Shown piece after piece: positions 24,868-46,302 of a DNA stretch of 64,000 bases (the stretch's first letter is position 1; every line of letters begins with the position of its first letter). The notes under the pieces are model-generated. The model was not told where the DNA came from. It did no database searches and saw nothing but the letters and a program-made list of their open reading frames with translations. A program made the position numbers and the translations under genes. Where the stretch lies: contig JAQTNI010000001.1 of assembly GCA_028713935.1 (NCBI GenBank), positions 1,464 through 65,463 on the forward strand, read 5' to 3'. The stretch comes from Candidatus Iainarchaeum sp. (GTDB lineage Archaea > Iainarchaeota > Iainarchaeia > Iainarchaeales > GCA-2688035).

Positions 24868-25045
24868 GTGGGGTTACAGGGATTTGAACCCTGATCAACT
24901 GGTCGCTCATTATTTTACCCTGCCTTTTTGTTGTTTACCAAAGAAAAATGGTTCTTTTCTTTGGGCAACTTACACTTTCTTTTCTTGCCAAGAAAAGAAA
25001 GGGCAGGTCTGGAGCCAGTCGCACTGCCTGGTTATGCTATAACCC
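24868..25045 (-). tRNA. tRNA-Trp (anticodon CCA) with a ~105-nt intron in the anticodon loop
   Basis: Acceptor GGGGTTA/TAACCCC, D-stem GCAT/GTGC, anticodon stem ACTGG/CCAGT, loop CTCCAGA, T-arm CAGGG-TTCAAAT-CCCTG, discriminator A. Intron is roughly 24907-25011. Confidence 0.75.
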
Positions 25046-25264
25046 CGTTGGGATAATTGAAGAATTTAAAGTTTTTAAAATCAGAGGTTTTGCATTGCAA
25101 AACCTTTCTTTCCCAGGGCTTTCTTTTTTAAAGAAAGGCCTGCCAAAGTAGCTCACTTGTTGAGTGCATAAAACAACTTTGTTTTGTTGTGTTTTTAAAG
25201 ATATGGAATTTTTTATTTTTCAAATCCGTCAATTTAATATATTCTAATTGCGCTACTATTACTG

Positions 25265-33550: not shown

Positions 33551-33711
33551 TGCGTCCGCCGGGATTCGAACCCGGGTTACGAGCTCTTTCCTGCTTCAAT
33601 TTTGTTTATTATTTGTTGAAGTTCTTTCTTTTGGGCAACTTACACTTTTCTTTCTTTCAAGAAAGAAAAGGGCAGTGGGAAGCTCGAATCCTACCGCTAG
33701 ATTACAGACGC
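33551..33711 (-). tRNA. tRNA-Gly (anticodon CCC) with a ~90-nt intron
   Basis: Acceptor GCGTCTG/CGGACGC (one G-U pair), D-loop AGCGGTAGG, anticodon stem CGAGC/GCTCG, loop TTCCCAC, T-arm CCGGG-TTCGAAT-CCCGG. Intron is roughly 33585-33674. Confidence 0.75.
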
Positions 33712-35640: not shown

Positions 35641-35671
35641 TGCAAAAGCAATTGAGAAAACCATTTGCAAT

Positions 35672-36088
35672 TCAGTTTTGCCCTATTCCACAAAGTTTTT
35701 TCCATTGCTCTTCCACTGTCCTTTCGTTCACATATGGCTTGTGGTGCCTGAATCCGCCTCCAAATCCTGCTGGGATGTGCAGTAATTCGTGAATCAGGGT
35801 TTTTGTTTTGTCATCCTCGCTTAGCCTGTCAAATTTTTCCGAAAGCAGTTCAATCACATAAAAAGGCTCTGTTTTCATTCCAAGCTGCATTGCTTTTCCT
35901 AACCCATGTATGCGTGCAATTGTCCTTCTTGTTTTTGTCCCTGCACTTTTAAGACAGGCAATTCTTTCAGGCGCAATATGGTGAAAACCGAGCTTTTCAA
36001 CAAGTTCCCTTGCCTTCAAAGTCCATTCTTCTGAAAAAGCGTATTTCACAAAAAAAACCTTATAACATTTCAGAAATTTTTTTTCCAA
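35672..36088 (-). CDS. Putative zinc metallopeptidase (HExxH)
   Basis: HELLHIPAGFGGGFRHH motif. Confidence 0.45.
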   Translation of the reverse strand: MEKKFLKCYKVFFVKYAFSEEWTLKARELVEKLGFHHIAPERIACLKSAGTKTRRTIARIHGLGKAMQLGMKTEPFYVIELLSEKFDRLSEDDKTKTLIHELLHIPAGFGGGFRHHKPYVNERTVEEQWKKLCGIGQN

Positions 36089-36560
36089 ATTCCCTTGCTG
36101 CCTGCGGGCCTTTTCCTGTAATTATTTTGCCATCGGTTTCAACAAGCGCTTCAGTTAATTTTGCGCCTTTTGCCTCAATTTTCTCTGCAAGCCCTGTGCA
36201 GGTCGCTTTTTTTCCTTTCAAGAGGCCTGCATTTGCAAGAATCATTGGTGCAATGCAGATTGCTGCAACAATTTTTCCTTCTTTTGAAAATTCTTTTGCC
36301 AATTTCAATGCAGCCGCATCTTTGAAATAAGTTTCTGAGCCTGAGCCTCCGACAAAAATAATTGCATCAAAATCGCCTGTTTTCACCTGCTTTAATTCCA
36401 ATGAAATTTCCGCTTTTCCCCCAAGCATTCCAATTGCAGTGCCTTTTTGCTTTCCTGCAATAACTGTTTCATGCCCTGCCTTTTCCAGCTCTTCTTTTGT
36501 AAAAAACAATTCTTCATCACGGAAATTTTTTTGTGCAATTACCAAAACAATCTTTGCCAT
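36060..36560 (-). CDS. DJ-1/PfpI family protein
   Basis: IVLVIAQKNFRDEE ... AAICIAPMILA, with the nucleophile Cys in the elbow motif. Internal start chosen. Confidence 0.7.
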   Translation of the reverse strand: MAKIVLVIAQKNFRDEELFFTKEELEKAGHETVIAGKQKGTAIGMLGGKAEISLELKQVKTGDFDAIIFVGGSGSETYFKDAAALKLAKEFSKEGKIVAAICIAPMILANAGLLKGKKATCTGLAEKIEAKGAKLTEALVETDGKIITGKGPQAAREFGKKISEML

Positions 36561-36626
36561 AAGCAGTGCCTTTATCCAATTATTTGCAGGGAAAGGTTTT
36601 TTATTCTGAAAGGGCATAATGTTTGC

Positions 36627-36974
36627 ATGAAAACAGGGCTTTTGCTGATTTGCTTTGTTGTTTTTGCTGTTTTGTTCAGCGGCTGCACACAGCAGCCCGC
36701 ACAAGCCCCTCTAGGCGGAAACAATTCCAATACAATTGAAATTTCAAATTTTTCTTTTTCTCCAAGCGAAATTACAATTAAAAAAGGAGAAACTGTTGCC
36801 TGGATAAACAAGGATTCAGCAAAGCACAGCATTGTTTCAGACTCAGGAAGCGAATTGAATTCAACGCTTTTGGCAACCAACGAAACTTTTTCACACACAT
36901 TTAATTCTTCGGGAACATTCGGTTATCATTGCACTGTGCACGCTTCAATGAAAGGAAAAGTAATCGTAGAGTGA
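36627..36974 (+). CDS. Cupredoxin (plastocyanin/halocyanin-like blue copper protein) with signal peptide and Cys lipobox
   Basis: C-terminal YHCTVHASMKG copper-ligand pattern (Cys-x2-His-x3-Met). Confidence 0.7.
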   Translation: MKTGLLLICFVVFAVLFSGCTQQPAQAPLGGNNSNTIEISNFSFSPSEITIKKGETVAWINKDSAKHSIVSDSGSELNSTLLATNETFSHTFNSSGTFGYHCTVHASMKGKVIVE

Positions 36975-36978
36975 TTGC

Positions 36979-37197
36979 TTGCTCGAAAACATTGTTTATT
37001 TCATGATTCTTGGAAAGCCGCTCATATTCTATTTGGGGATTATTACCCTGGTTTCTTTTTTGTGCACTGCAACAATCGGCTTTTTGAATTTTAAAGGCTA
37101 TAAAAAAATTCCTTTCAAATGGCATCCGCGCTTTGCTGCAATTTCAATAATTCTGGGAATAATCCACGGCACACTCGGAATACTGCTTTACCTTTGA
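36979..37197 (+). CDS. Small membrane protein (2 TM)
   Basis: Hydrophobic 72-aa ORF. Confidence 0.35.
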   Translation: MLENIVYFMILGKPLIFYLGIITLVSFLCTATIGFLNFKGYKKIPFKWHPRFAAISIILGIIHGTLGILLYL

Positions 37198-37235
37198 AAA
37201 CAAAGCTTTTTATTTTGCTTTTTTCTAATTAGAAC

Positions 37236-38057
37236 ATGCAGCCAAAAATCTTCTGGATTGCCTCTCTCGCGCTTCTTTTGATAATGCTCATTGTGAATGC
37301 CTTTTTTGTCCTCGACCTGCTCACTTCCGACCTTCCAGTTGAATTGTTCATAGTGAATTTCATACTTTTTTTCCCATTGGCTGCCTCACTTGGCTTTGTT
37401 TGGGCCAAAAAAAATTTTGGCTATTATTTAAGCCTTGTTCTTGGGGCGATTTTTTTAGTGCTTTATGCGGGTGAATTTATTTTTACGCTCCTGGCTTTGC
37501 AGGAAGCGCTTTCCCTGATGGATTTTTTTTCCTTTATTTTCCCGCTTATAATTCCGCCTGCCCTGCTCCTGCTCTGCACATGGAAAAGCAGGCCTGTTTT
37601 TCAGGAAACAAATCCGGGAACACATTGGAATGCAGCGCTGATTACACTAGTCCTGGTTTTTTTGTTTTACCTTGCTTCGGCAATAACACTTGCCTTTTAT
37701 TATTCCGCAATGGTTGCAGCCGAATATTTCACTGAAAACCTTGTTTATATTTTCAATTCCCTCTTAATCCAGGGAGCAATCTTTATTGTTGCGCTTATTG
37801 CAACTGCATTTTTCTTTTTTAAAAAAAGAGCGGGTTTTTACCTGGGGCTTGCTGTTCCAATCCTGCTTGCAATTGTTTCCCTTGCAGACCTGAGCATGCA
37901 ATTAATTTCTGTTTGGCAAATTGCAACTCCAGATGAAATGTTGTCATTGTCACTTGCAATTTTAGGTTCCATCCAGCCAGGCCTTTTAATAATCCTTTTT
38001 TACTGTATCTGGAAAGCAAAGCCTGTTTTTGAGGAAAAAAAACATGCACAACCTTGA
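37236..38057 (+). CDS. Polytopic membrane protein (hypothetical)
   Basis: Eight or more hydrophobic helices. Confidence 0.5.
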   Translation: MQPKIFWIASLALLLIMLIVNAFFVLDLLTSDLPVELFIVNFILFFPLAASLGFVWAKKNFGYYLSLVLGAIFLVLYAGEFIFTLLALQEALSLMDFFSFIFPLIIPPALLLLCTWKSRPVFQETNPGTHWNAALITLVLVFLFYLASAITLAFYYSAMVAAEYFTENLVYIFNSLLIQGAIFIVALIATAFFFFKKRAGFYLGLAVPILLAIVSLADLSMQLISVWQIATPDEMLSLSLAILGSIQPGLLIILFYCIWKAKPVFEEKKHAQP

Positions 38058-39087
38058 TTTGAAACTGGATTCCTCGCAGCTGAAAGATATCTGGGTTATG
38101 CTTAGCCAGTCCTGTGACCATAAATGCAGGAATTGCTTTGAAGCAACTGAAAAAGGAATTGATTCATCAAAAGACAACCTTTCTGCAAAAGAAATACTGA
38201 AATTAATCAATGAGGCAATTGAATTGGGAATCAATGAAGTCGGGATTCCAGGAGCATGAGAACCATTTCACCCAAAAAATATCAAAATACTGTTCAAGAT
38301 TCTTAATAACAATTTCAAAAAGGGAATTCATACAACTGTTTTTACACACCTCGGCTTTTTTGACAAGAAGATAGTAAAAAAGCTTGCAAAATTCGGTGAC
38401 AAAATTACGCTGCTTGTAAAATTCAATTCCTTTAAGCCAGAGCTTCAGGATTGGTTTGACAATGCAAAAGGCTATGCAAAAAAACGCGATAAAATTCTTC
38501 AGCTCCTGTTCAAGCAGGGCTTTAACGATGGCAAACGCCTTGGTTTTGTAACCTCAATAATGACTTTTAATTTCAAGGAGATTCCTGAAATTTTCCGTTA
38601 CTGCAGGAGAAATAACATTGTGGTTGATATTGACAATATTTTGCCGAGGGGGAGAGGCTATAAAAACAAGTTCAATCCCTCGGATAAAAAACTGAAGGGA
38701 ATGTATGAAACACTTGCAAAAATTGACAAAGAAGAATTTGGCAATGGCTGGGAACCAACCGGGAGTTATGCCGGCCCTGAAGCCTGCAATCGTTATTGCC
38801 ATCACCTGTTCATTGCAAAAAACGGTGAAGCACATCCCTGCATTGGCTCTGTTAATATTTTTCTTGGCAATGTAAAAAAGCTCGGCTTGAAGCAAATTTG
38901 GAATTCTTCGGAAATGAAAATTATCAGGGAACGTTCTTATGACGGGAAATGTCTTGACTGCAAATTGTTCATTGAAAACAAATGCCATTCCTGCCTTGGC
39001 AGATATACTGAAAATCTTGACAAAAGGAATCTTCTTGAAACAGGAAAGGGTCATACAACTGGCTGTTTTTGCTTCAAAGAAAAATAA
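38029..39087 (+). pseudogene. Radical SAM / SPASM-domain enzyme interrupted by one in-frame TGA (38257-38259)
   Basis: N-terminal CDHKCRNC (CxxxCxxC) and C-terminal Cys-rich SPASM region. The frame is continuous across the TGA, which falls at the Gly of the conserved GGEP motif (GIPGA*EPF). Confidence 0.7.
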
Positions 39088-39100
39088 TAGGGGCAAATTT

Positions 39101-39814
39101 TTAATCAGCCAGTTCCCAGTAAATTCTCCTGTTGCTTGCTCCCTTGTTGTTGAGTTTTGTAATCTTCACTTTTCCGATTTCTTTTGTGTTTTTCACATGG
39201 GTTCCGCCGTCAGCGCTCACATCAATGTTTCCAATGCTGACAAGCCTGAATTCTTCAAGCGCTTTTGGCAATTTGTCCTTTAACCTGAACAAATCAGGAT
39301 TTTTCAATGCCTCTTCTCTTTTCACAAAAGAAACAGTAATGCCAAGGTTTCCTGAAATAATCTCATTTGTGTCTTTTTCAATTGCAGCAAGTTTTTCCCT
39401 GTCAAATTCTTTTAAGTCAAAATCCATTCTGCTGTGCTCTATGCCGAGCTGGTTTCCTGAAACAAGAACCCCAAATTTTTTCCAAATTGAATTGTGAATA
39501 ATGTGCGCGGAAGAATGCATTCTCATTAATTTGTATCTGCGTTCCCAGTCAACAATGCAATGCACTTCATCTCCCTGTTTCAAGCCTTCCCTGTCAACTT
39601 CATGGCTCACATTTTTGCCAAAAGCCTTTGAAAAAACAACTTTGAATTCAGCTCCATCGCTTTTCCTTTTAATTGTTCCATTGTCACAAGGCTGCCCGCC
39701 CTGCTCCGGATAAAGAGCTGTCCTGTCAAGAACAACAAATTTTTCCTGCATGCTTTCCACTTTGGCATCAAATTCTTTAAGGTAAGAATCATGCAGCCAC
39801 AAAAACTCTGTCAT
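39101..39814 (-). CDS. alaX: AlaX-type Ala-tRNA editing domain protein
   Basis: HSSAHIIH and ...GGTHVKNTKEIG zinc-binding editing motifs. Internal start at MTEFLW. Confidence 0.7.
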   Translation of the reverse strand: MTEFLWLHDSYLKEFDAKVESMQEKFVVLDRTALYPEQGGQPCDNGTIKRKSDGAEFKVVFSKAFGKNVSHEVDREGLKQGDEVHCIVDWERRYKLMRMHSSAHIIHNSIWKKFGVLVSGNQLGIEHSRMDFDLKEFDREKLAAIEKDTNEIISGNLGITVSFVKREEALKNPDLFRLKDKLPKALEEFRLVSIGNIDVSADGGTHVKNTKEIGKVKITKLNNKGASNRRIYWELAD

Positions 39815-39907
39815 AAAAAGCCTGACAAAATTAACAATAAAAAGAATTAAAAAATTAGTTTTTTTGCTAAACTTGGTTTTAAGCTTTTTTCTGTTTATTG
39901 CTTGTTT

Positions 39908-40459
39908 ATGGGAAATTTTTATTTTGACATTGAAACAACTGGCCTTGATGCAAAGAAAAACAAGATTATTACTATCCAGTACCAGGAATTGGACAGGCAC
40001 ACAGGCAATGCAATTGGCGAGCTTGTGATTTTAAAAGAATGGGAGCTTTCTGAACGCGGAATTCTCGAAAAGTTTATTGCCGATTCAAAGATTGCAAGCA
40101 ATTATGATTTTGATTTTATTCCAACTGGCTATAACTTGGGTTTTGAACACAATTTTTTGAAGGAAAGAACAGCGCTTCACAGCCTGAATCCTCTTGATAT
40201 TCTCAGCAAGCCGTTTCTCGACCTGAGGGCTTTTGGCATAATAATGAACAAAGGGGAATTCAAAGGCTCAGGCCTTGACAAAATAACAGGAAAAGCAACT
40301 GACGGAAGGCAGGTTCCAATCTGGTATCAAAACAAGGAATATGCCACAATAATCAAATACATAGAAAACGAGGCAAAATCATTCATAGAACTCAATGCCT
40401 GGCTATACAAAGAAATGCCGGGCTGCATGGAAAGATTCAAAAAAGAAAACAAAATATGA
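39908..40459 (+). CDS. DEDD-family 3'-5' exonuclease (DnaQ-like)
   Basis: YFDIETTGLD Exo I motif. Confidence 0.65.
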   Translation: MGNFYFDIETTGLDAKKNKIITIQYQELDRHTGNAIGELVILKEWELSERGILEKFIADSKIASNYDFDFIPTGYNLGFEHNFLKERTALHSLNPLDILSKPFLDLRAFGIIMNKGEFKGSGLDKITGKATDGRQVPIWYQNKEYATIIKYIENEAKSFIELNAWLYKEMPGCMERFKKENKI

Positions 40460-40463
40460 ACAA

Positions 40464-40658
40464 TTATTCTTCCCAGATAAACAGCTTGTCAATTGTTGTT
40501 TTCAGCTCTTTTGCCAGTGCATGGGCAAGCAAAATTGAGCAGTTGTAATCTCCTTTTTCAATGAAAACAATTGTTTCCCTTCTTACCCCGACTTTTTTTG
40601 CAAGCTCTTCCTGGGTAAGGCTGAATTTTGCCCTGAGTTCTTTGATTCTTGTTTTCAA
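40464..40658 (-). CDS. XRE-family HTH transcriptional regulator
   Basis: [29 protein letters not shown]. Confidence 0.75.
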
Positions 40659-40670
40659 GGAATCACTTTG

Positions 40671-41090
40671 TCAATCAATTTTTCCATTTTTTTTAAACCA
40701 TAGTGCCAGCACAATGAAAGTGATTGCAGGCACAACAATTAATGCCTCAAAAGCGTATCTAAATTCAATTTCGGGAAGCCTGAAAAACTCAATTGCAAAC
40801 ATATTGGCAACCATTATTACGATTGCAAGCCACAATCCGACAAGAAAAGCATAATAACCAGCTTTCCAGGTTGCTTTTTTGGACAATTCATCCTCCAGAG
40901 GCAGGCCTGTTTTGATTGAAGTGACTTTTTCAGAAGCGGCAACAATTGCAATAAGTCCTACTGCAACTGCAATTGCAACAGTGGCAACAAGCCAAAAAGA
41001 ACTGCCAGGCAGAGAAAAAAACAGGGAAAAACCCGCAATCAGCAAAGCCGCAAGAAAAACCCGGATAAAAAGATTCAACCGTTTGCCCAT
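40671..41090 (-). CDS. Membrane protein (4 TM), likely co-transcribed with the XRE regulator
   Basis: Hydrophobic ORF starting 13 nt after the regulator gene. Confidence 0.45.
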   Translation of the reverse strand: MGKRLNLFIRVFLAALLIAGFSLFFSLPGSSFWLVATVAIAVAVGLIAIVAASEKVTSIKTGLPLEDELSKKATWKAGYYAFLVGLWLAIVIMVANMFAIEFFRLPEIEFRYAFEALIVVPAITFIVLALWFKKNGKID

Positions 41091-46108: not shown

Positions 46109-46302
46109 GCAGAGGTGGCAGAACTTGGTAAATGCGCCGGCCTTGAGAAGCCTTTCTTTCTAAAGAAAGAAAGCCTTGGGAAAGAAACAGTTTGGCTCTG
46201 CCAAACTGTAGTTCGCTTCGCTTACATTAGAAAAAAAGATTATTATTTTTCAGGCGAGCCGGTGTCCGAAAGGGCGCGTGGGTTCAAATCCCATCCTCTG
46301 CG
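46109..46302 (+). tRNA. tRNA-Ser (anticodon TGA) with a ~108-nt intron and long variable arm
   Basis: Acceptor GCAGAGG/CCTCTGC, anticodon stem CCGGC/GCCGG, loop CTTGAGA, variable arm TGTCCGAAAGGGCGC, T-arm GTGGG-TTCAAAT-CCCAT. Intron is roughly 46149-46256. Confidence 0.7.

What the first reader, a model, noticed from the sequence alone, without database searches (positions are those of the whole stretch)
38029..39087. Radical SAM/SPASM maturase interrupted by a single in-frame TGA at the conserved GGEP glycine, next to small membrane and cupredoxin genes
The 1059-nt frame is open except for TGA at 38257-38259. Upstream is CDHKCRNC (CxxxCxxC). Downstream is a Cys-rich SPASM half (CNRYCHH, CIGS, CLDCK, CHSC). 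The stop aligns with the second Gly of the GGEP motif (GIPGA*EPFHP). TGA=Gly recoding (code 25) can be excluded because TGA plainly terminates ftsZ, rpl1, ugd and others. Selenocysteine at a structural Gly is unlikely. The most probable explanations are a GGA-to-TGA nonsense mutation (fresh pseudogene) or a base-call error. Upstream neighbours are a lipoprotein-type cupredoxin, a 72-aa two-TM protein and a polytopic membrane protein. Together these hint at a peptide-maturation or metallo-cofactor locus.
Basis: seen in the sequence. Interest (0 to 1): 0.55.

Follow-up and report, generated by a model that had tools for sequence, protein, structure and literature searches.

The report
Freshly broken radical SAM/SPASM gene
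A radical SAM/SPASM enzyme gene of a small DPANN-type archaeon carries one real premature TGA stop where every relative has an essential glycine, so it is most likely a recently inactivated gene, which is an ordinary event.

Summary
The gene at 38044-39087 (+) has 347 codons and is open except for TGA at 38257-38259. This TGA replaces Gly72 of the SAM-binding GGE motif (GIPGA*EPFHP). Gly72 is invariant in 70 homologues. One orthologue reads GGA GCA GGA GAA CCA TTT CAC, against GGA GCA TGA GAA CCA TTT CAC here, so a single G-to-T change explains the stop.

The TGA is probably not an assembly slip. Two separately assembled sequencing runs (SRR22315508 and SRR22315509) match the window 100% across it. 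TGA is a normal terminator in this genome: 28 of 66 long ORFs end with it, exactly at Pfam domain ends. I found no SECIS-like structure and no UCA-anticodon tRNA in the window. A pattern scan of JGI metagenomes found no relative with TGA at this codon. Apart from the stop, the gene is as well conserved as its intact orthologues, so the lesion is recent.

The suggested link to the cupredoxin and membrane neighbours is not supported, because orthologues sit in unrelated neighbourhoods. Five orthologue lineages instead share a divergent tandem Lrp/AsnC gene that is absent from this window.

Verdict: a fresh nonsense pseudogene of an uncharacterised, DPANN-wide radical SAM/SPASM family. Low interest.

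The parts
38044..39087 (+). Radical SAM/SPASM gene (347 codons plus TAA), interrupted once; best read as a unitary pseudogene
   Evidence: Orthologues are 347-358 aa, start MHNL, and are 55-72% identical over 99-100% of the length.
38257..38259 (+). In-frame TGA replacing the invariant Gly72 codon (second Gly of the GGE SAM-binding motif)
   Evidence: The identical base is present in Logan assemblies of SRR22315509 and SRR22315508.
38113..38136 (+). CxxxCxxC radical SAM [4Fe-4S] cluster motif (C24, C28, C31)
   Evidence: These cysteines are invariant in the 70-sequence alignment.
38785..39066 (+). SPASM domain with seven conserved Cys (C248, C266, C303, C306, C314, C317, C341). It lies downstream of the stop and so is not translated from the normal start
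   Evidence: Pfam SPASM 6.3e-10; invariant Cys columns.
38031..38034 (+). GAGG Shine-Dalgarno-like motif 9 nt upstream of ATG 38044, inside the 3' end of the upstream membrane-protein gene
   Evidence: Read directly from the sequence. Inference only.
38044..38256 (+). The only product expected from the normal start: a 71-aa stub that has the cluster motif but lacks most of the barrel and the SPASM domain
   Evidence: Logan gene calls report exactly this 71-aa product. The next in-frame ATG/GTG/TTG is at 38560, 100 codons downstream.

Best explanation
This is a recently inactivated (nonsense) copy of a stand-alone radical SAM/SPASM gene that is widespread in DPANN archaea. A single G-to-T transversion turned the GGA codon of invariant Gly72 into TGA. 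TGA is an ordinary terminator in this genome, so translation stops after 71 residues. The stub keeps the CxxxCxxC motif. It lacks the rest of the SAM-binding partial TIM barrel and both auxiliary-cluster sites, so no active enzyme is made. The rest of the reading frame has not yet accumulated further damage, which makes the event evolutionarily recent. It may still be segregating in the population. Shown: the stop, its position, its reproducibility, the normal use of TGA, and the lack of extra decay. Inferred: loss of function, and the direction of the mutation.
For: The stop sits at a column that is Gly in all 70 aligned homologues. The orthologue P0003 (L009/L010) has GGA GCA GGA GAA CCA TTT CAC against the window's GGA GCA TGA GAA CCA TTT CAC. 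Two Logan assemblies of separate runs are 100% identical to the window over 5281 and 3575 bases including the TGA, and both call the 71-aa product. TGA ends 28 of 66 ORFs of at least 100 aa, and coding density is 88% under the standard code. Among TGA-terminated genes, L1 (profile 198/198), RsmB (199/199), GMP synthase (92/92) and the epimerases end at the last profile positions. No other gene in the window is split by a single in-frame stop. There is no hairpin after the TGA: MFE is -5.3 kcal/mol, weaker than 196 of 200 shuffles. The 3' region is unremarkable, z = -0.26. Rfam gives no SECIS hit at E <= 10. The four tRNAs in the window are Ala(CGC), Gly(CCC), Ser(UGA) and Trp(CCA); none has a UCA anticodon. 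A degenerate pattern requiring G-[IV]-P-G-x-TGA-E-P-F-H found only one unrelated chance hit in the JGI metagenome collection. The window copy deviates at 5 of 128 conserved sites apart from the stop, within the 0-15 range of intact orthologues. Gene loss in this family has a precedent: orthologue P0020 carries a frameshift about 10-20 codons downstream of the motif, seen in contigs from several samples. The GGE glycines hydrogen-bond the methionyl moiety of SAM in the nearest solved relative, SkfB (PMC6231123).
Against: I could not inspect raw reads, so the allele frequency at 38257 is unknown. The two Logan runs probably come from the same study as the window, so they exclude assembler error but not a population-specific allele. 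The gene is otherwise perfectly preserved, which is also what a tolerated or read-through stop would look like. Only 64 kb of the genome is visible, so a suppressor tRNA or Sec machinery elsewhere cannot be formally excluded.
Confidence: 0.8

Rival explanations
1. The stop is leaky. Near-cognate readthrough of UGA (for example by tRNA-Trp CCA or tRNA-Cys), or a suppressor tRNA encoded elsewhere, yields a small amount of full-length enzyme, so the gene is still functional or is down-tuned.
For: Apart from the stop, the ORF is as conserved as intact orthologues, and it keeps its start, its Shine-Dalgarno-like motif and all cluster cysteines.
Against: There is no stimulatory structure downstream. 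No UCA-anticodon tRNA is in the window. TGA is the stop of 42% of the genes, so a general suppressor would be costly. Near-cognate insertion would place Trp, Cys or Arg at an invariant glycine of the SAM-binding GGE motif. No relative shares the feature.
Confidence: 0.08
2. This is a sequencing or consensus artefact, and the organism really has GGA.
For: The gene is otherwise intact. A single base separates TGA from the GGA used by an orthologue.
Against: Two runs assembled independently of the window by a different pipeline give the same base within contigs that are 100% identical over 3.6-5.3 kb. The site is not in a homopolymer or repeat.
Confidence: 0.06
3. UGA is recoded here as selenocysteine, or as glycine in the manner of code 25.
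For: The codon is TGA rather than TAA or TAG, and it falls on a Gly position, which is what code 25 would produce.
Against: TGA is a bona fide terminator at domain ends. There is no SECIS-like element or Rfam hit. Homologues have Gly, never Cys, at this site. Only 7 of 137 single-base nonsense paths in this gene fall on Gly codons, but a 5% coincidence is unremarkable. To my knowledge Sec use has not been reported in DPANN archaea (own knowledge, not established by the papers read here).
Confidence: 0.02

Closest known systems
Uncharacterised DPANN radical SAM/SPASM orthologues (e.g. P0001, P0002 and P0005; annotated 'MoaA/NifB/PqqE/SkfB family radical SAM enzyme' or 'radical SAM protein [Nanoarchaeota archaeon]')
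   Same: They have the same length (347 aa), the same MHNL start, the same CxxxCxxC, GAGEPF and seven-Cys SPASM motifs, and 55-72% identity over the full length.
   Different: They are uninterrupted and have Gly (GGA or GGT) where the window has TGA. Their neighbourhoods differ from the window's.
Solved SPASM/twitch radical SAM enzymes: SkfB (6EFN), SuiB (5V1Q), anSMEcpe (4K37), CteB (5WGG)
   Same: An AlphaFold model of orthologue P0002 (pLDDT 95) matches them with Foldseek probability 1.0 and TM 0.56-0.67. The profile search against PDB sequences gives SkfB 2.4e-12. They share the partial TIM barrel plus a C-terminal auxiliary-cluster domain. Like anSME, this enzyme has no N-terminal RRE domain.
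   Different: Identity is only 16-20%. The peptide maturases SkfB, SuiB and CteB carry N-terminal peptide-recognition domains and sit next to precursor genes, and neither is the case here. No substrate can be assigned.
AhbD / NirJ / tungsten-cofactor radical SAM maturase (NCBIfam TIGR04545, TIGR04055, TIGR04317)
   Same: These are the best NCBIfam hits (E = 1e-16 to 1e-13) and have a similar size and SPASM architecture.
   Different: Scores are 52-61 bits against curated cut-offs of 380-500 bits, so this is not a member of those families. The tandem Lrp/AsnC gene next to several orthologues matches regulators rather than siroheme decarboxylase AhbA/B.
Frameshifted orthologue P0020 (L001 5733-6762)
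   Same: It belongs to the same family (70% identity). It is disrupted in the same region, between the GGE motif and strand beta3, and it is otherwise well conserved, with 2 of 91 conserved sites changed.
   Different: Its lesion is a frameshifting deletion, not a nonsense codon. Its C-terminal piece has acquired an ATG (an Ile/Val-to-Met change) just after the break, so it could conceivably be expressed as a split protein. The window has no in-frame start for 100 codons.

Membership tests
Radical SAM superfamily (PF04055) | CxxxCxxC cluster motif near the N-terminus | tested here: met
   CDHKCRNC at residues 24-31.
Radical SAM superfamily (PF04055) | Profile score above Pfam's gathering threshold | tested here: met
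   51.5 bits against 29.5, with Gly substituted for the stop.
Radical SAM superfamily (PF04055) | Intact GGE SAM-binding motif | tested here: not met
   The second Gly codon is TGA. It is invariant Gly in 70 homologues. As encoded, the gene cannot make a complete member.
SPASM subfamily (PF13186) | C-terminal seven-Cys motif for two auxiliary [4Fe-4S] clusters, and a profile score above the cut-off | tested here: met
   C248, C266, C303, C306, C314, C317 and C341 are invariant. SPASM scores 39.6 bits against 21.5.
RiPP (peptide) maturase locus | N-terminal RRE/PqqD-like peptide-recognition domain | tested here: not met
   Only 23 residues precede the cluster motif. The model of the orthologue shows no extra N-terminal domain.
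RiPP (peptide) maturase locus | Adjacent short precursor gene and conserved accessory genes | tested here: not met
   There is no free Cys-rich ORF in 36970-38030. The neighbours are not conserved across seven orthologue contexts.
Selenoprotein gene | SECIS element (downstream hairpin in bacteria, 3'-UTR element in archaea) | tested here: not met
   Folds are no better than shuffles. There is no Rfam hit at E <= 10.
Selenoprotein gene | Cys-containing homologues at the UGA position | tested here: not met
   All homologues have Gly.
Selenoprotein gene | tRNA-Sec, SelB, SelD, PSTK and SepSecS in the genome | not testable with these tools
   Only 64 kb of the genome is available, and the genome was not found among the GTDB representatives.
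Genetic code 25 or 4 (TGA = Gly or Trp) | TGA not used as a terminator, and genes fragmented under the standard code | tested here: not met
   28 of 66 ORFs end in TGA at their domain ends, and the window is 88% coding under the standard code. tRNA-Trp has anticodon CCA.
AhbD / NirJ haem-pathway radical SAM enzymes | Score above the NCBIfam equivalog cut-off | tested here: not met
   About 52 bits against 500.
Unitary nonsense pseudogene | A single disabling lesion in an otherwise orthologous frame, intact orthologues elsewhere, and a lesion reproducible in independent data | tested here: met

The most novel reading that the evidence does not exclude
The UGA is deliberately decoded in this DPANN archaeon, either by site-specific readthrough or by a low-abundance suppressor tRNA restoring Gly. 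The gene would then be a live enzyme whose level is throttled by a leaky stop. The independently disrupted orthologue P0020 would reflect a recurrent regulatory or split-gene solution in this family.
Probability: 0.03. Interest if true: 0.6.

Novelty: new member of a known kind. Interest (0 to 1): 0.12.

Why it matters
It matters little beyond annotation. It shows that this DPANN genome has just lost, or is losing, a radical SAM/SPASM enzyme that many DPANN lineages keep, in line with ongoing genome reduction. Annotators should mark 38044-39087 as a pseudogene, and should not call a 71-aa ORF plus the spurious antisense ORF at 38554-39096. The family itself is more interesting than the stop: it is orphan, DPANN-wide, and often paired with a tandem Lrp/AsnC gene.

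Tried and rejected
(1) Code 25 or code 4 reassignment was rejected on stop-codon usage and domain-end checks.

(2) Selenocysteine was rejected. The downstream and 3' regions fold no better than shuffles, and a permissive Rfam scan of 37900-39500 found nothing relevant.

(3) A suppressor tRNA was not found. The intron-bearing tRNAs were decoded by eye as Gly(CCC), Ser(UGA) and Trp(CCA).

(4) A conserved TGA in relatives was not found. The degenerate DNA pattern scan of JGI metagenomes gave one chance hit in an unrelated, stop-filled frame.

(5) Finding the source genome or close strains failed. A single-protein scan of GTDB representatives found nothing. The alignment scan returned only distant relatives of 43% identity or less. 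The exact 175-aa C-terminal ORF is not on record.

(6) A paralogue in the window was sought and not found.

(7) A functional link to the cupredoxin and membrane genes was rejected on orthologue neighbourhoods. The 72-aa and 273-aa proteins have no Pfam or NCBIfam match.

(8) I considered that the tandem Lrp/AsnC neighbour of orthologues might be an AhbA/B- or NirDL-type siroheme decarboxylase, which would make the enzyme AhbD/NirJ-like. It scores far better to Lrp/AsnC regulators, and no decarboxylase structure was hit.

(9) Gms/Tes lipid radical SAM enzymes were considered after the literature search. Gms homologues are longer than 420 aa and have an N-terminal helical domain (PMC11186832), unlike this 347-aa protein. 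I did not compare the sequences directly.

Full report
OBSERVATION. The + strand frame 38029-39087 is open except for TGA at 38257-38259. It encodes CDHKCRNC (CxxxCxxC, residues 24-31 counted from ATG 38044). Downstream of the stop it encodes a Cys-rich C-terminal half. With Gly placed at the stop, Pfam reports Radical_SAM (1.7e-13; 51.5 bits against a cut-off of 29.5) and SPASM (6.3e-10; 39.6 against 21.5). The real start is ATG 38044. All close orthologues start MHNL and are about 347 aa, and GAGG lies 9 nt upstream. The gene is therefore 38044-39087, 347 codons plus TAA.

WHAT THE STOP REPLACES. A database search gave 87 homologues. Nearly all are from DPANN archaea (Nano-, Woese-, Pace- and Micrarchaeota labels), with a few from CPR bacteria, and the best are 72% identical over the full length. 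In alignments of 34 and 70 sequences the stop column is Gly in every intact sequence, within GIPGAGEPFHP. This is the GGE motif. In the nearest solved relative, SkfB, its glycines hydrogen-bond the amino and carboxyl groups of SAM (PMC6231123). At the DNA level, orthologue P0003 reads GGA GCA GGA GAA CCA TTT CAC and the window reads GGA GCA TGA GAA CCA TTT CAC. One G-to-T transversion is therefore sufficient. Of 137 possible single-base nonsense changes in this gene, 7 fall on Gly codons. The coincidence with glycine (5%) is not evidence for Gly recoding.

IS THE BASE REAL? The exact 71-aa product MHNL...GIPGA is on record from two Logan assemblies of separate runs, SRR22315509 and SRR22315508. 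Their contigs are 100% identical to window 35664-40944 and 37333-40907, with no mismatch or gap. These runs probably belong to the study that produced the window. They rule out an assembler or polishing slip. They do not give the allele frequency, because reads could not be inspected.

IS TGA A STOP HERE? The window has 39% GC. Under the standard code, 66 non-overlapping ORFs of at least 100 aa cover 88% of it, with stops TAA 33, TGA 28 and TAG 5. TGA-terminated genes end where their families end. Examples are ribosomal protein L1 (profile 198/198, protein residue 211/219), RsmB/F (199/199, 313/315), GMP synthase C (92/92, 601/602), two epimerases/dehydratases, FtsZ and UDP-glucose dehydrogenase. 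A scan for long frames interrupted by one stop found no second split gene. The other cases are adjacent genes or antisense frames. The tRNAs in the window are Ala(CGC), an intron-bearing Gly(CCC) and an intron-bearing Ser(UGA), and a further intron-bearing Trp(CCA) that I found by eye. None reads UGA.

RECODING SIGNALS. The 91 nt from 38250 fold at -5.3 kcal/mol, worse than 196 of 200 shuffles. The 3' region 39080-39220, which is also the end of a convergent AlaX-type gene, has z = -0.26. A permissive Rfam search of 37900-39500 gave only chance-level hits and no SECIS family. A degenerate pattern demanding G-[IV]-P-G-x-TGA-E-P-F-H across the JGI metagenome collection returned one locus whose frame is full of stops and unrelated. 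No relative in that collection shares the TGA.

AGE OF THE LESION. At 128 columns that are at least 90% conserved among the 19 closest intact orthologues, the window copy differs at 5 apart from the stop. Intact orthologues differ at 0-15 by leave-one-out. There are no frameshifts or further stops. The next in-frame start codon after the stop is 100 codons downstream, so a useful C-terminal product is not expected. The lesion is therefore recent. Loss has a precedent in this family. Orthologue P0020 (70% identical) carries a frameshifting deletion between HPNNI and FKII. It splits the gene into 85-aa and 253-aa calls and is seen in contigs from several samples. It too is otherwise well conserved, with 2 of 91 sites changed.

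CONTEXT. In the window the gene follows a lipoprotein-type cupredoxin (36627-36974, amicyanin/plastocyanin-like), a 72-aa two-TM protein and a 273-aa polytopic membrane protein. It overlaps the last of these by 14 nt, so co-transcription is plausible. A convergent AlaX-like gene follows it. None of these neighbours recurs next to orthologues in L001, L007, L009, L011, L023 or L026. Five lineages (L009/L010, L013, L014, L023-25, L026) instead have a divergently transcribed 320-340-aa tandem Lrp/AsnC protein directly upstream. That protein matches Lrp/AsnC regulators much better than siroheme decarboxylase AhbA/B. It has no homologue in the 64-kb window, and it is absent next to the closest orthologues. 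The 'peptide-maturation or metallo-cofactor locus' idea is not supported. There is no room for a precursor ORF, no RRE domain, and no conserved accessory genes.

WHAT THE ENZYME IS. An AlphaFold model of intact orthologue P0002 is confident (pLDDT 95.4, pTM 0.93). Its best structural matches are SkfB, SuiB, anSMEcpe and CteB, with TM 0.56-0.67 and 16-20% identity. The PDB sequence profile search gives SkfB 2.4e-12, followed by SuiB, BtrN, CteB, MoaA, PqqE and NifB. The NCBIfam best hits (tungsten-cofactor maturase, NirJ2, AhbD) reach 52-61 bits against cut-offs of 380-500. It is a compact, anSME-like radical SAM enzyme with a full SPASM domain and without an N-terminal extension. Its substrate is unknown.

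VERDICT. It is a fresh nonsense pseudogene (confidence about 0.8), not a base-call error (about 0.06), not Sec or code-25 recoding (about 0.02), and with a small residual chance of functional readthrough (about 0.08). The proposed functional locus with the cupredoxin and membrane genes is not supported. This is an ordinary case of gene decay in a reduced genome, and interest is low.

Noticed in passing
window 24869-25046 (-): This is an intron-bearing tRNA-Trp (anticodon CCA, intron of about 110 nt after position 37) that both ARAGORN and the Rfam gathering scan missed. I recognised it by eye from the acceptor, D, anticodon and T arms.
   Followed up: partly
window 33551-33711 (-), 46109-46302 (+), 24869-25046 (-): Three tRNA genes, Gly(CCC), Ser(UGA) and Trp(CCA), carry unusually long introns of about 90-115 nt. 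The Gly and Ser introns contain a TTTCTTTC-N-GAAAGAAA hairpin found nowhere else in the window (3 matches against 0 expected). The Trp intron has a similar TTTCTTTTCTT-GGCA-AGAAAAGAAA hairpin that does not match that pattern. The Gly and Trp introns share a longer block (ctgcccttt...gtgtaagttgcccaaa), which suggests a related intron family.
   Followed up: partly
L009 3860-4882 (-), L023 2832-3818 (-), L026 2952-3914 (-), L013 3882-4856 (-), L014 3383-4327 (-): Orthologues of the radical SAM/SPASM gene in five lineages share a divergently transcribed tandem (two-module) Lrp/AsnC-type protein directly upstream. This conserved pair could point to the regulation or function of the orphan enzyme family. 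The partner is absent from the window and from the closest orthologues' loci.
   Followed up: partly
L001 5733-6762: Orthologue P0020 is split by a frameshifting deletion just after the GGE motif. Its C-terminal piece begins at an ATG created by an Ile/Val-to-Met change with an AAAGGG stretch upstream. This could be a second pseudogene or a two-piece enzyme. The same split is seen in contigs from several samples.
   Followed up: partly
L009 6176-7402: Downstream of orthologue P0003 lie a 42-aa ORF and a second radical SAM gene (348 aa), then a 325-aa ORF. This could be a small peptide-modification cassette, and it is unrelated to the window.
   Followed up: no
window 38554-39096 (-): A 180-aa antisense ORF lies over the untranslated SPASM half. 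Automatic gene callers annotate it as a 166-aa protein in the Logan contigs. It is almost certainly spurious, because the sense frame has E = 1e-174 homology.
   Followed up: partly
window 36627-37197 (+): A lipobox cupredoxin (amicyanin/plastocyanin-like) is followed 5 nt later by a 72-aa two-TM protein with two His residues in or near its second hydrophobic segment (KWHPRF, IIHGT). The two may form a small membrane-anchored copper electron-transfer pair in a DPANN genome. The 72-aa protein has no family match.
   Followed up: no
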